Source: Octopus vulgaris (Eukaryota). From it: a stretch of 64,000 nucleotides of DNA. The stretch spans positions 82,460,001-82,524,000 of the forward strand of contig OX597817.1 in assembly GCA_951406725.2 (NCBI GenBank), in the 5' to 3' direction. This document shows positions 1,095 through 58,772 of this stretch, piece after piece (position 1 is the first letter of the stretch; each line of letters opens with the position of its first letter). A program made the translations under genes and the position numbers. The notes beneath the pieces were generated by a model that saw only the letters and a program-made list of their open reading frames with translations, did no database searches and was not told where the DNA came from.

Positions 1095-1345
1095 CACGTA
1101 CTATATATATTCAGTGATATTTATTTTTACATTAATCTTAATCTATTTGGCCAAAGTTCTTTCGTCACATTGTGACCGCATTATCCTTTGTTTTCTTTCA
1201 TTAATTGTCTCTCCTTACTAACCGTCAGCTGACGGTTAGTAAGGAGAGACTGAGGAAAACAAAGGACCACTATGCGTCATACGAAAGAACTAAATAAGAT
1301 TAAGATTAATGTAAAAATAAATATCACTGAAGCAAAATAACACCA
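1095..1345. mobile_element. Palindromic Penelope-like pseudo-LTR pair between TA tracts, with degenerate hammerheads
   Basis: Perfect centre gtctctccttactaaccgtcag|ctgacggttagtaaggagagac with imperfect arms of about 110 bp. The arm is homologous to 41600-41750. Confidence 0.7.
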
Positions 1346-1430
1346 AATATATATATGTATGACCATTCGTAATATAACAATATAACACACGACTTCACAT
1401 AAAAAATCTTGCACAACAAATATTTAAACG

Positions 1431-1572
1431 TATATATATATATATATATATATATATATATATATATATATATATATATATATATATATATATATATATA
1501 TATATATATATATATATATATATATATATATATATATATATATATATATATATATATATATATATATATATA
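1431..1572. repeat. (TA)n microsatellite
   Basis: Directly visible. Confidence 0.98.
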
Positions 1573-1583
1573 TGTATGTATTT

Positions 1584-1878
1584 GGAGGCGTAATGGCCCA
1601 GTGGTTAGGGCAGCGGGTTCGTTGTCGTAGGATCGCGGTTTCGATCCCAGACCGGGCGTTGTGAGTGTTTATTGAGTAAAAACACCTAAAGCTCCACGAG
1701 CCTCCGGTAGGGGGTGGCGGCGATCCCTGCTGTACTCTTTCGCCACAACTTTCTCTCACTCTTTCTGCTCGCTTAGCCAGCAAGGTTTCGTCATTTGAAG
1801 GCTAAAACAATGTGAAGCGCACTGTGACCAGCGATGTGTGGCAACATCTGATAGCCTGGTCAGTCACGGTGACAGTGA
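1584..1878 (+). mobile_element. tRNA-derived SINE family A, alternative 3' tail
   Basis: A box TGGCCCAGTGG and B box GGTTTCGATCCC; body shared with other copies. Confidence 0.8.
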
Positions 1879-2679
1879 TATATATATATATGTATATAAT
1901 GTGGATATTTAAATCTCACTCCATGTATTTAAACAAGAGAAACAAGGCACTCATATTTTAGTTCAATATGGAATTTATTAGCCGGTATGGAATTTAAAAC
2001 TGAATGAAAGATAGTCTATCCTAGTTGAATGTCAGTAAAGAGAAAATTCTTAAATGAAAGACTATAAATTATGCGATATAACAGTAAGATATAAAAGTTT
2101 AAAGATTATCCGAACAAAAGAGCAAAGGTTAAGGGATAAACATATATGAACATGTAAATGCTTACAATAGATCAACAAAAGAGAAATGCTCAGTAAGAAA
2201 TAACTGAGAGCAGTCACTTTGTTGGGCTAATAAATATTATAGTTGATACTTCATAAACAAGGTATATTGTAGGTAACAACATGAATAATAGTGAGAAGCT
2301 GTTGAAAGAATTACAAATAGGACGAAAAAGATTTAAAAGATTTGAAGATTATTACTTTATTCAAAGGAAAGAAGAATTGTTCGCACTTAGGGGTGGAAAT
2401 TGCGTATGGCTGTTTCAGTTGAGAATAAAAGGGTACATTGAAGGTTTGTTTTTTTTTTAAATGTAGAATAGAGCAATTAATTGTGGGGAGTAGTTTAAAT
2501 ATTTACTGTAAATTGAAGTGGGTGTACAAGGTATGCAACGGAAGTAGATTGGCATACTTATAGATTTCAATTGCGAGGGTAAGAAATATGTATTTGATGG
2601 GTTTCTATACTTAGATAACTATATTTCTCCATGTTTATTGATGACTCAGGCCTTTATAAAATTGGTTTCTCAACATCCT

Positions 2680-2960
2680 GGAGATGCCGAACCTTACAAG
2701 GAATTTGGTATCGGAGTATAACTTAACCTTAGGCACGATGCTTTCCTTTAGGCTGTTAGATAATTCGTTGCTACTCAGTTCCCATATGACTATGCATAAC
2801 GAGTTTTATTAGCTGATCAGGGTTTTTTCTGAAATCGTTAATATGATTATTAAAACCTAATTTAAAAGGATTCGAACTCAGACCATTATATGACCCAGTA
2901 AAATTATTGTTTTATTAGTCGATTTTGTCAACTGTTCACTGGCATGTCAGTTAAATCCTA
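2680..2960 (-). pseudogene. Highly degraded Penelope-like GIY-YIG fragment
   Basis: Minus-strand translation YNGLSSNPFKLGFNNHINDFRK...IWELS resembles YIG..FK.RY.NH..SFR...IWELK. Confidence 0.35.
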
Positions 2961-55025: not shown

Positions 55026-55260
55026 TATATATATATATATATATATATATATATATATATATATATATATATATATATATATATATATATATATTATATA
55101 TATATATATATATATATATATATATATATATATATATATATATATATATATTATATATATATATATATATATATATATATATATATATATATATATATAT
55201 ATATATATATATATATATATATATATATATATATATATATATATATATATATATATATAT
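55026..55260. repeat. (TA)n microsatellite
   Basis: Directly visible. Confidence 0.98.
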
Positions 55261-55278
55261 ACGACGGGCTTCTTTCAG

Positions 55279-56520
55279 AGCCAACCAGGTAGCTATGTTA
55301 CAGTAACTGGAAAAGGTTTGACTGCTAATATATTACAAGTGAGAGAAGTAAAACTAGACGAGAAGTAATTGAAAAAGTTCAACGAACTTATAGCAAAGAA
55401 AGGTGTCAGCCTGACGTTGACCCCGCCGAAAGAAGTGACAGAAAATACAACTAATGTTAATTATTGAAAATACAACTAAAGGACAGTAATTTATAGAACG
55501 CTCTCCACAGCAACTAAAAGGATCGAAATAGCTACGGCGGAAGCAATAGAAGTATGTCTAAAGGATATTAAAAACCTCACGACATTATATACTAGAAGTA
55601 AGAAATATGGCAGAGTGGAGGTTCGTTTCGCGAGCGAACAAGAACGATAAAGCACTCCACAGTACCGTTGATGTCGTTTGAGTGGGTGCTACTGCCAACC
55701 TACTGTAGCAAACGTGTGGCCAGAGTTAGGATTTGCAGAGTGTACAGTAGGGAAGAGAAAGAAGAAAGAGAGGGAAACGCGAACTCACCACCTAAGAGTC
55801 CGCTGGAAAAGAGAAAAGAAAACGTAGAGGAGACTCAGGGTGTAAGATCAGCTATACCAAGGGAGGAGAAATGAAGGTGCAGAAAAAAAAAGAAGATACC
55901 TGAAAGATGCCAACAACATTGAGTGAGAGAGATAGGTACCAGTAATATCAGAAGAGACTAATGATGGAAAACAGGAAGAAGTGCAGAAAGGAAAACACTT
56001 ACGGACTATGATAGAGTATAAATGAGGGCGGCGAGCTGGCAGAAACGTTAGCACGCCGGGCGAAATGCGTAGCCGTATTTTGCCTGTCGTTACGTTCTGA
56101 GTTCAAATTCCGCCGAGGTCGACTTTGCCCTTCATCCTTTCGGGTCGATAAATTAAGTACCAGTTACGCACTGAGGTCGATGTAATCGACTTAATCCCTT
56201 TGTCTGTCCTTGTTTGTCCCCTCTGTGTTTAGCCCCTTGTGGGTAATAAAGAAATATATGATAGAGTATTAAAAAAAGTGTAGAAATTGAAAAAAAATCA
56301 CCAAGATGAAACAGGTAATTATGGTTAAATTACTGGCGGATGAGCGTAACGAATGCGACCGAGCAGTCTTGCTTGAGAAAGAGAGAGGAGAGAAATTGAA
56401 GGAAATGCTTGGAGAGAAGATAGAAATATCGCCGATACAGATTCGGTTTGACGAGTTGCCACCTGTGGTGGCATTTCAGAATTTAATAGAGAATATATTG
56501 TAAATGAAATATTGTTTAGC
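55279..56520 (+). mobile_element. Degraded coding-like remnant, possibly LINE (L1/Tx1-type) ORF1, interrupted by a SINE
   Basis: Purine-rich and protein-like (YTRSKKYGRVEVRFASE; EWVLLPTYCSKRVARVRI), but no diagnostic motif. Confidence 0.3.
56026..56255 (+). mobile_element. SINE family B, full length and young
   Basis: Near-identical to 17207-17437. Flanked by the repeat tatgatagagtat (about 56008-56020 and 56257-56269), a possible TSD. Confidence 0.9.
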
Positions 56521-56901
56521 AAGAAAAAAATTTTAATAGTGACTTTTTAAAAAAATTATACAAAAAGAATAATGAGCTGAGTGTTAAATGTATACATAAA
56601 CAGTTAAATGATACTGTCTGCGAGTGGGGGGCAGTTAAGCCATTTCATTTCCATTTTCATAATTCATAATTTCATTCGCTATATGTTTTATGTACCCCAC
56701 TGTGTTGCATTATCTGTCCATATATTGTCTCCTCTTTGTAAGAGAATGTGTGCTCAAAATAAAGAAATAATGCGGCGTGTTTTTGACGGTCTCCCGTACC
56801 TAATGGTAATTATTGAATCGTTGATTTATCGAATTGTTACCTGTTATTTTGCCTAATTGTTTTCTTCTCCATATATATATATATATATATATATATATAT
56901 A

Positions 56902-57630
56902 CTAGCAGTATAGCCCGGCGTTGCTCGGGTTTGTTTTTTAGTTGCGCTTAAAACGGTATGTCACGTTAACAAAGTTTTGACATGGTTTCAATCTATGAAT
57001 AAAAGTATAGTGTGGCGATGCTCGAGTTTGCTCTGAATGTTCTGCAAATGTGTAATGCCGATTTCAATTGTTGGTATTGTTGGTTAATATTCCTTCTTTT
57101 AACATTATGGAGAAAAAAATTATCCGTAGATCTAAAGTAAAATGAAGTTCAAGTTTCTAACTGCACTGAAAATCTGTTAAGAAGTTAACACTGCAACAGT
57201 ATTCATTAAGAAAAAGTACAGGAAAATCCGTCGTTCGCTCAAAACCAATCACGTCACAAAAAAATTCTTTTCGACCCTTTAGAATTGGAATTTTTGAAAA
57301 GTAAAAGTTTTGCATTATGTAGCTTGTTATTCTCTTTAAGTGAACATTTTTCTGGTTGAAATACACCGAAAAATGGTGACACAGCTGTCAAAAAATCGTA
57401 AAAAGTAGGGATTTTCATAGAAAAAAAGCACTTTTTTGATGTAAATAATTTTTGGTCTTAACATGGTCCGATTTGATTTTTTTCTTCTACGGAAGGAAGA
57501 GCTAGCCTTCTTCTATTATACTCTCAATTTTGGTCAACTTGCACCACAGGGTCTCGGAGAAGATAGTGTTAGTTGAAGGCTACCAAACTTGCCACACACA
57601 CACACGGATAACTTCAGCTTTATATATATA
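56902..57630 (-). mobile_element. Non-autonomous Helitron in a TA tract
   Basis: The minus strand ends cccgagcaacgccggg-ctatactg-CTAG|T and starts tatatataaagctgaagtt..(GT)n. Confidence 0.8.
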
Positions 57631-58553
57631 TATATATATATATATATTACAGAGATGTACTTGCATAGCAAGGGACTACATCTGAAATCGTGTGCCGAAA
57701 CAAAAACAGTTTCAGCGTGGGAGATGTTTATAAGCCATTTAAGAACACACACACACAACATATATATATGTGTGTGTGTGTGTGTGTACACTCATAGAAA
57801 TAAATATGTATAGATGTATGTATATCTATCTCTATGTCTATCTTTCTTTTTCCTTGGTTGGCTAACAGTCTCCCCCGGTTTACATACACACACACGCACA
57901 CACACATACACACACTAATGTATATATCCATCGGAGAGCGGAATAAAATAGGTGTTTAAAATCTCTATTATAACAATTTAAATCACATAATCTTTACACG
58001 TGTTTCTCTAGCGTATATAAGTATGTTGTGCAATAACTTAGACGTTTGCACTATCAACTTAAACTGCAAGATCCTCGGAAGAAAATAATAGTTTAATCCA
58101 CTTCAGATGGAAGGCAGATGGAAGGCAGAACTAAATGAAACTTGATTCTAAAACTCGCGCGCGCACACACACACACACACACACACACACATATTAAATT
58201 AATGCAAAGTACCAGAATATTTTGTTCGATTGAACAACTAAAGTTTTCAAATGAATGGCAAGTGAAAACTAGTTCAGACAACTCTAGAATACATTCGAAA
58301 TTTATATACTAATTAAATAAAGAAGTGTTAATCGGTAAGATTTTAAAAACTAACACATAATTATTTGAAAATTAAAATGACTGCTGATGTAAGGAAGTAG
58401 AAAGCGAGATACTGTAATATAGAGAGTGTAAAATTGGACAGAGATATGAGAGAAAGAGCGGAAGCATACAGGATATATATATATATATATATATATATAT
58501 ATATATATATATATATATATATATATATATATATATATATATATATATATATA

Positions 58554-58772
58554 TACAAAATTTAGAGGAATGACCACTAAAGTGGACACACTATATGCTA
58601 ATAAGAGACGTCAAATCGTCATTAGCACGAAGAATGTGTCCTCAAAAAAAATGTCAGCAAAAAAAAAACATTTACATTTGGGTTTTTTGCTGAGATTTTT
58701 TCTTGAGAACACATTCTTCTATGTTTAGAATATAGGGTGTCCACTTTAGTGGTCATTCCTCTAAATTTTGTA
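58554..58772. repeat. ~220-bp palindromic element abutting (TA)n
   Basis: tacaaaatttagaggaatgaccactaaagtggacac / gtgtccactttagtggtcattcctctaaattttgta, plus inner arms. Confidence 0.85.

What the first reader, a model, noticed from the sequence alone, without database searches (positions are those of the whole stretch)
1095..58772. Recurrent class of unrelated fold-back/tandem elements at (TA)n tracts, several with hammerheads
Seen: at least seven elements with little or no mutual similarity share one architecture of direct and/or inverted repeats of about 100-360 bp, mostly abutting TA tracts: 1095-1345, 5375-6005, 21945-22415, 38050-38875, 42915-43110, 54059-55025 and 58554-58772. Five of these families contain hammerhead motifs. 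Known: Penelope-like elements integrate as partial tandems, often with an inverted pseudo-LTR. Inference: a diverse community of Penelope-dependent, TA-microsatellite-targeting ribozyme elements populates this genome, at a density of about one per 9 kb here.
Basis: partly seen in the sequence, partly recalled or inferred. Interest (0 to 1): 0.75.

Follow-up and report, generated by a model that had tools for sequence, protein, structure and literature searches.

The report
Penelope-pasted hammerhead repeats in TA tracts
The fold-back elements are copies of eight genome-wide non-coding repeat families that each carry a predicted self-cutting hammerhead RNA motif and were likely pasted in by Penelope-type retrotransposon enzymes; the kind is known, but 64 of 65 scorable two-armed copies end once with and once without a short tail, which makes the copying mechanism testable.

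Summary
Confirmed with corrections. The seven elements are eight insertions from eight repeat families (roughly 100,000 copies genome-wide, crude estimate). All eight family consensuses hold a type I hammerhead motif on one strand. Intact motifs in the named window copies are limited to E6 and E2a. Copies have fixed 3' ends facing outward, variable 5' truncation and variable head-to-head junctions, so they are not MITEs. 145 of 264 3' ends abut (TA)n against 4.1% background; family E2a is not enriched. Three families (E1, E2a, E2b) are related, not unrelated. Each family ends at two sites 50-100 nt apart, and 64 of 65 scorable two-armed copies use each site once; protein-coding Neptune-type elements here do likewise (8-9 of 10). 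About 17-20 of 64 cannot arise by simple fold-back, favouring priming from both target strands. Intact Penelope-like ORFs exist, but none shares sequence with these families; one chimeric insertion joins a Neptune arm to an E3 arm. Cleavage, circles and expression are untested. Known kind (animal retrozymes, non-autonomous PLEs); this scan reported the same reading many times on other DNA of this genome.

The parts
1086..1430 (.). E1: two head-to-head arms (junction 1228/1229); left arm ends short of the tail, right arm carries the tail; decayed hammerhead (family core has C at position 9); TA on both sides
5380..5672 (-). E2a: single arm, older family related to E1/E2b, minimal hammerhead at 5620
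5755..6014 (.). E2b: two head-to-head arms of a ~200-nt element, decayed U3:A8 minimal hammerhead at the 5' start of each arm, no TA tract
21889..22415 (-). E3: about 1.45 tandem copies of a 353-nt unit, decayed hammerhead at 22142 and a partial one at 22380-22402; tail end at TA
38042..38883 (.). E4: minus arm 38296-38042 (tail end) plus plus arm 38276-38883 (1.3 copies of a 465-nt unit, tail-less end); decayed hammerhead at 38654
42815..43114 (.). E5: two short arms of a 528-nt unit family (tail end left, tail-less right); this copy is truncated before the family hammerhead
54057..55028 (.). E6: young (99%) insertion, minus arm of about 1.9 copies of a 362-nt unit (tail end) and plus arm 54782-55028 (tail-less end); U3:A8 hammerheads at 54324(-), 54686(-), 54828(+); long TA tracts both sides
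58550..58828 (.). E7: two arms of a 531-nt unit family; left end tail-less at TA, right arm runs into the tail and is cut off by another repeat at 58829; copy lacks the family hammerhead
41539..42024 (-).
18657..18995 (+).
11403..12602 (.). Decayed protein-coding Neptune-type PLE with the same head-to-head layout: minus arm 11835-11403, plus arm 11841-12602 (RT thumb to GIY-YIG region, many stops and frameshifts)

Best explanation
These are non-coding repeat families with a predicted hammerhead ribozyme, likely transcribed and likely copied into the genome in trans by Penelope-like (PLE) reverse transcriptase/endonuclease proteins. Shown: fixed outward-facing 3' ends at two sites per family, variable 5' truncation, head-to-head arms, tandem units in five families (353-531 nt), (TA)n bias, one tail end plus one tail-less end per two-armed copy. 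Inferred mechanism: the PLE protein, probably a dimer, nicks both strands of a self-complementary (TA)n or AT-rich target; one nicked strand primes reverse transcription at the distal start site and the other at the proximal site 50-100 nt upstream; the two cDNAs run for independent lengths (more than one unit when the template is a circle or multimer) and are joined at their 3' ends by microhomology or short palindromes. The ribozyme would cut multimeric transcripts to monomers or circles in the tandem families; it does not define most insertion ends.
For: 174 loci scored (180 fetched, 6 duplicates dropped; best-scoring hits, not random): 226 of 264 3' ends fall in two windows covering 4-10% of each unit; 145 of 264 abut (TA)n vs 4.1%; 64 of 65 scorable two-armed copies have one end of each class, p=2e-18. 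Coding Neptune-type PLEs of this genome: 8 clear plus 1 probable of 10 two-armed copies do the same; three further families seen by eye also do (L279, L211, L220). 20 of 64 copies have arm lengths that copying of one folded-back cDNA cannot give, 4 with the tail arm stopping within 20 nt of the other start site. Hammerhead in 8 of 8 consensuses; E6 unit folds with hammerhead stems I and II, z=-6.35. Intact 753-aa and 781-aa RT plus GIY-YIG ORFs in several or many near-identical copies. One insertion joins a Neptune coding arm head-to-head to an E3 arm. Literature: two internal RT start sites bounding the tail, both strands cut and extended, predicted dimer (PMC11167929); tail often at only one end, inverted 5'-truncated copies (PMC8557442, PMC3846280).
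Against: No autonomous element shares sequence with any of the eight families beyond weak low-complexity hits; only Neptune-type families were sampled. 44 of 64 copies are also compatible with fold-back, and 29 of 91 junctions are near-symmetric (partly query bias). End windows and the descriptor were set after seeing the data. 25 of 90 two-armed copies had an end outside the windows and were not scored; 1 E4 copy and 1 Neptune copy have two tail ends. Three of the 20 incompatible copies are borderline or rearranged (L061, L081, L157). E2a shows no TA enrichment (2 of 34). E1, E2a, E2b and E6 motifs have non-standard cores or a U at the cleavage position, and Rfam scores none. No RNA, cleavage or circle data.
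Confidence: 0.75

Rival explanations
1. PLE-mobilised, but the inverted arm arises by self-priming or fold-back of a single cDNA (or antisense RNA) at internal palindromes, and the endonuclease then trims one end to remove the tail.
For: Proposed in PMC3846280 (self-priming) and PMC8557442 (tail from endonuclease resolution). 44 of 64 copies fit by length; 29 of 91 junctions near-symmetric; 17 of 65 E6 arm starts cluster in 12 nt around a short palindrome; private variants can be shared by both arms.
Against: 20 of 64 copies (about 17 clear) have a tail-less arm reaching further 5' than the tail arm allows, including linear families where no tandem unit can rescue the model; the chimeric Neptune/E3 insertion has arms from two different RNAs (n=1).
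Confidence: 0.25
2. The TA tracts grew from the elements' own AT-rich 3' ends after insertion (or were added by slippage of the telomerase-like RT) rather than being pre-existing targets.
For: Element ends are TA-like; TA is commoner at 3' than 5' ends (145 of 264 vs 19 of 84); E2a and E2b mostly sit in AT-rich non-TA sites.
Against: 5' ends, which carry no seed, still abut TA in 19 of 84 cases vs 4.1% (p=1e-9); elements are found inside TA tracts left by earlier PLE copies (L279, L296). Both processes may act.
Confidence: 0.15
3. They are TIR MITEs (DNA transposons) or chance hairpins in TA-rich DNA.
For: Several window copies look like simple hairpins flanked by TA; E2b often folds at its 5' start (7 distinct junction classes among 16).
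Against: The two ends differ by the tail; lengths vary two- to nine-fold within families; junctions differ between copies (20 of 20 in E6, 11 of 11 in E4); 84 ends are 5'-truncated single arms; five families form head-to-tail units; all carry a strand-specific hammerhead.
Confidence: 0.02
4. Tandem units arise by local amplification (unequal crossing-over) of solo pLTRs after insertion.
For: Suggested as a route in bioRxiv 10.64898/2026.07.22.740005; E6 units within an insertion share variants (248 of 362 same-arm comparisons vs 974 of 11186 between loci).
Against: E6 copies are 99% identical genome-wide yet already multi-unit in both arms, with arms ending at the fixed start sites and starting at arbitrary points, as expected for arrays made during insertion.
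Confidence: 0.08

Closest known systems
Metazoan non-LTR retrozymes (PMC7229834; bioRxiv 10.64898/2026.07.22.740005)
   Same: Non-coding tandem units with one type I hammerhead each, low GC, PLEs proposed as helpers; E3 and E6 units (353, 362 nt) match the mussel range of 350-390 bp.
   Different: E4, E5, E7 units are 465-531 nt, above the 150-450 bp quoted; head-to-head arms, tails and TA targets were not found in the passages read (word searches for 'inverted', 'target site', 'microsatellite'); circular RNA not tested here.
Endonuclease-containing Penelope-like elements (Neptune, Penelope/Poseidon, Naiad; PMC8557442, PMC3846280, PMC11167929)
   Same: 5' truncation, partial tandems, inverted 5' copy, optional tail at one end, AT-rich or (TA)n targets.
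   Different: No ORF; tails are about 50-100 nt rather than 30-40; the one-tail rule is counted here (64 of 65) where the papers say 'often' or 'optionally'.
Dispersed minimal PLE hammerheads (PMC4209133)
   Same: U3:A8 core variant, extra base after position 9, palindromic or absent helix III, and opposite-strand pairs 100-700 bp apart were all described, e.g. in Schistosoma.
   Different: There read as probable truncated PLEs; here E1, E2a, E2b form short, non-tandem families with their own recurring 5' starts and a shared tail, like SINE-type PLE dependants; E1 has C at position 9.
Non-autonomous Chlamys elements such as MRC1 (PMC8557442)
   Same: Non-coding PLE dependants with pLTRs and head-to-tail insertions.
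   Different: Those resemble their autonomous partners at the 3' end; no such match was found here.

Membership tests
Non-LTR retrozyme | Short non-coding head-to-tail unit | tested here: met
   E3 353, E4 465, E5 528, E6 362, E7 531 nt wrap round; not met by E1, E2a, E2b, whose consensuses did not wrap
Non-LTR retrozyme | Type I hammerhead motif per unit | tested here: met
   8 of 8 consensuses, sense only, 0-2 of 1000 shuffles; Rfam gave no hit
Non-LTR retrozyme | Self-cleavage of the RNA | not testable with these tools
   needs in vitro transcription
Non-LTR retrozyme | Expression as monomeric or circular RNA | not testable with these tools
   only assembled contigs were offered, none on record as RNA
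Non-autonomous PLE | 5' truncation, partial tandems, inverted 5' arm | tested here: met
   90 of 174 loci two-armed, 84 truncated 5' ends
Non-autonomous PLE | Optional 3' tail between two RT start sites | tested here: met
   226 of 264 3' ends at two sites; 64 of 65 one of each
Non-autonomous PLE | Autonomous PLE with intact RT and GIY-YIG in the genome | tested here: met
   753-aa ORFs and 781-aa open frames; same end rule
Non-autonomous PLE | 3' or pLTR sequence shared with an autonomous partner | tested here: inconclusive
   no match to the Neptune-type families fetched; other clades not sampled; one chimeric insertion for E3
TIR MITE | Identical terminal inverted repeats at both ends and uniform length | tested here: not met
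   ends differ by the tail; lengths and junctions vary
TIR MITE | Fixed target-site duplication | tested here: inconclusive
   cannot be read inside (TA)n; no empty site recovered

The most novel reading that the evidence does not exclude
PLE integration is a strictly asymmetric twin-priming reaction: the two target strands are each assigned one of the two start sites, across all PLE-dependent families, and the two arms can even be copied from two different RNAs (helper mRNA and retrozyme RNA) in one event, as the Neptune/E3 chimera at L301 suggests.
Probability: 0.35. Interest if true: 0.7.

Novelty: new member of a known kind. Interest (0 to 1): 0.42.

Why it matters
How PLEs make their tandem and inverted insertions is stated as unresolved in PMC8557442 and PMC11167929, and the helper of animal retrozymes is still an inference (PMC7229834; bioRxiv 10.64898/2026.07.22.740005). 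This genome holds young non-coding families and intact PLE ORFs with one shared, countable end rule, so it offers mapped RNA start sites, targets and candidate enzymes for a direct test. It also shows that such fold-backs, about one per 29 kb for these eight families alone, are easily mis-annotated as MITEs or miRNA hairpins.

Tried and rejected
Rfam: no hammerhead family among rows shown for the window (150 of 332 rows), for E6 or for 10 loci at gathering score; hits were miRNA models on hairpins and microsatellites. Expression: no RNA holder listed. Empty-site search by laying contigs of four runs on 5000-6290: no joint skipping a whole element among the rows shown. Partner search: family sequences against Neptune-type loci from protein, Pfam GIY-YIG and DNA searches gave only neighbouring insertions or low-complexity hits. 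Heterologous arms: 1 of 84 single-arm 5' ends joins a PLE arm. Hammerhead cleavage site as 5' end: 3 of 65 E6 arm starts within 4 nt, p=0.036, weak (starts copied by hand). Single-circle test: units in an insertion mostly share variants, but 3 loci are mosaic at one site, so circle versus linear multimer is not settled. Multiple alignment of window hammerheads was uninformative. Control repeats had TA at 12 of 338 hit ends, but these ends need not be true termini. One search was swamped by TA matches and redone. Earlier-note look-ups by sequence and by near place gave nothing. Paper searches for Neptune TA preference and for cephalopod PLE ribozymes returned none; the twin-priming search returned one unrelated review.
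Full report
Setting. The window is 35% GC and rich in TA microsatellites. It lies on contig C4 of a 2.8-Gb animal genome, G000; earlier notes of this scan call it a cephalopod, which I did not test.

Observation. Self-comparison shows the inverted and tandem arms at the stated places. Mapping family consensuses back gives eight insertions: E1 1086-1430, E2a 5380-5672, E2b 5755-6014, E3 21889-22415, E4 38042-38883, E5 42815-43114, E6 54057-55028, E7 58550-58828. 12 of their 16 ends have (TA)4 or more within 10 nt, against 4.5% of window positions.

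Families. Each element has 192 to 2811 first-look candidates in the genome (lower bounds, 40 scored each). I fetched 180 best-scoring loci, dropped 6 duplicates and scored 174, the window's own copies included. Consensus extension wrapped round for E3, E4, E5, E7 (353, 465, 528, 531 nt); E6 is a 362-nt unit; E1 (550 nt), E2a (296) and E2b (about 200) did not wrap. Median identity to consensus runs from 84% (E2a) to 99% (E6). E1, E2a and E2b share their 3' region, so they are not unrelated. In 400 kb taken at round coordinates there were 14 hits, about 98,000 copies if scaled (54,000-164,000).

Ribozyme. A type I hammerhead descriptor, relaxed after I had seen the motifs, hits once on the sense strand of 8 of 8 consensuses, never on the antisense strand, and in 0-2 of 1000 shuffles each; in the 400 kb it gave 16 hits in 9 of 40 stretches against 0-3 in shuffles. 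E3, E4, E5, E7 have standard cores; E6 and E2b have the U3:A8 variant; E2a has U3 with G8; E1 has C9. These variants, except C9, match those in PMC4209133 (parts 1-2 of 4 read). The E6 unit folds with hammerhead stems I and II, z=-6.35. Intact motifs per family range from 30 of 30 loci (E6) to 1 of 25 (E3) (counts include a few neighbouring motifs). Rfam found none. The 3' regions of the coding PLEs show similar motifs by eye but the two tested did not pass the descriptor. Cleavage is untested.

Architecture. 3' ends face outward; 5' ends are truncated at variable points and, in 90 of 174 loci, joined head to head. 226 of 264 3' ends fall in two narrow windows per family, 50-100 nt apart, covering 4-10% of the unit (windows set from the data). 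Of 90 two-armed loci 65 had both ends in a window: 64 had one of each, 1 had two tail ends, none had two tail-less ends (p=2e-18). 145 of 264 3' ends abut TA against 4.1% background: E1 29/32, E6 42/46, E4 22/31, E5 17/28, E7 17/31, E3 7/26, E2b 9/36, E2a 2/34 (not enriched). 19 of 84 5' ends also do. Unequal ends, variable lengths and variable junctions exclude MITEs.

Helpers. The relic in the window led to intact ORFs: 753 aa with RT, a CX4CXXC motif and GIY-YIG (the GIY-YIG score is under the Pfam cut-off) and many 781-aa frames. I call them Neptune-type from that motif and the C-terminal endonuclease as described in PMC8557442 (passages); no tree was built. They end at TA and at two sites; of 10 two-armed copies 8 clearly and 1 probably have one tail, 1 has two. 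None shares sequence with the eight families. One locus, L301, joins a Neptune coding arm (apparently tail-less) directly to an E3 arm (tail end), and a 188-nt E3 piece inside the Neptune arm is 95% identical to the adjoining E3 arm and at most 81% to the other E3 loci. It is 1 of 84 ends examined and could also be sequential insertion plus local copying.

Mechanism. PMC11167929 (parts 1-2 of 4) shows for an anole PLE that both strands are cut and extended, that RT starts at two internal sites bounding the tail, that the protein is predicted to be a dimer and that ribozyme cleavage is not needed in vitro; it saw no strand difference in start site. PMC8557442 and PMC3846280 (passages) say the tail is often or optionally at one end and invoke endonuclease resolution or self-priming. 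Here 20 of 64 copies have arm lengths that fold-back of one cDNA cannot give (three borderline), and in 4 the tail arm stops at the other start site. That favours both strands priming on RNA, one at each site (my estimate 0.65). Against this, 44 of 64 fit either model, 29 of 91 junctions are near-symmetric, and 17 of 65 E6 arm starts cluster at a palindrome. E6 units in one insertion mostly share variants (248 of 362 same arm, 80 of 163 opposite arm, 974 of 11186 other loci), and a 10-unit array is uniform at two sites, but 3 loci are mosaic at one site, so circle versus multimer is open.

Comparison and novelty. The tandem families fit non-LTR retrozymes (PMC7229834, passages; bioRxiv 10.64898/2026.07.22.740005, parts 1 and 3 of 5 and passages); the short linear ones fit the dispersed minimal-hammerhead PLE derivatives of PMC4209133. 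I found no paper that counts the end-pairing rule or describes these families (searches; supplements not read and may bear on this). The scan's own notes give the same reading for many single families elsewhere in this genome (302 notes fit the look-up); I had reached it before looking, and they are not independent support. What this window adds is the cross-family count, the family-dependent TA bias, the related linear trio and the chimera. Verdict: new members of a known kind, interest 0.42.

Noticed in passing
L301:5450-8044 (G000:C15:61618001-61628000): Head-to-head insertion with a Neptune-type coding arm and an E3 arm; an E3 piece from the same copy lies inside the coding arm.
   Followed up: partly
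window 18657-18995: Ninth hammerhead family with a long stem II loop; a two-armed copy at L279 has one tail and one tail-less end and sits in the TA tract of a Neptune-type copy.
   Followed up: partly
window 11403-12602: Decayed Neptune-type PLE with inverted arm; its family's hammerhead-like motif reads as an A3:U8 core (by eye).
   Followed up: partly
window 41539-42024; L170, L173, L177, L180, L251: Full-length E1 copies begin with an oligo(T) run at a recurring 5' start; on the other strand it reads like a poly(A) signal and tail. Unexplained.
   Followed up: no
L211:2090-4800: Young 359-nt hammerhead array with 7 intact motifs in two head-to-head arms, met in a stretch taken at a round coordinate.
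   Followed up: no
L220:1790-2230, L221:8996: Short two-armed U3:A8 family whose motif and tail resemble those of the 753-aa Neptune-type element by eye; a candidate true partner pair.
   Followed up: no
L266:3145-7000: E6 insertion with about ten uniform tandem units in one arm.
   Followed up: partly
window 46363-47914 (-), 14771-15235 (+), 24185-24739 (+): Fragments of a LINE RT, a Pif1 helicase domain (Helitron-like, my inference) and a DDE transposase.
   Followed up: no
window 59650-60714 and 40480-41127: A further tandem repeat family with tetranucleotide tracts, shared between two places in the window; not examined.
   Followed up: no
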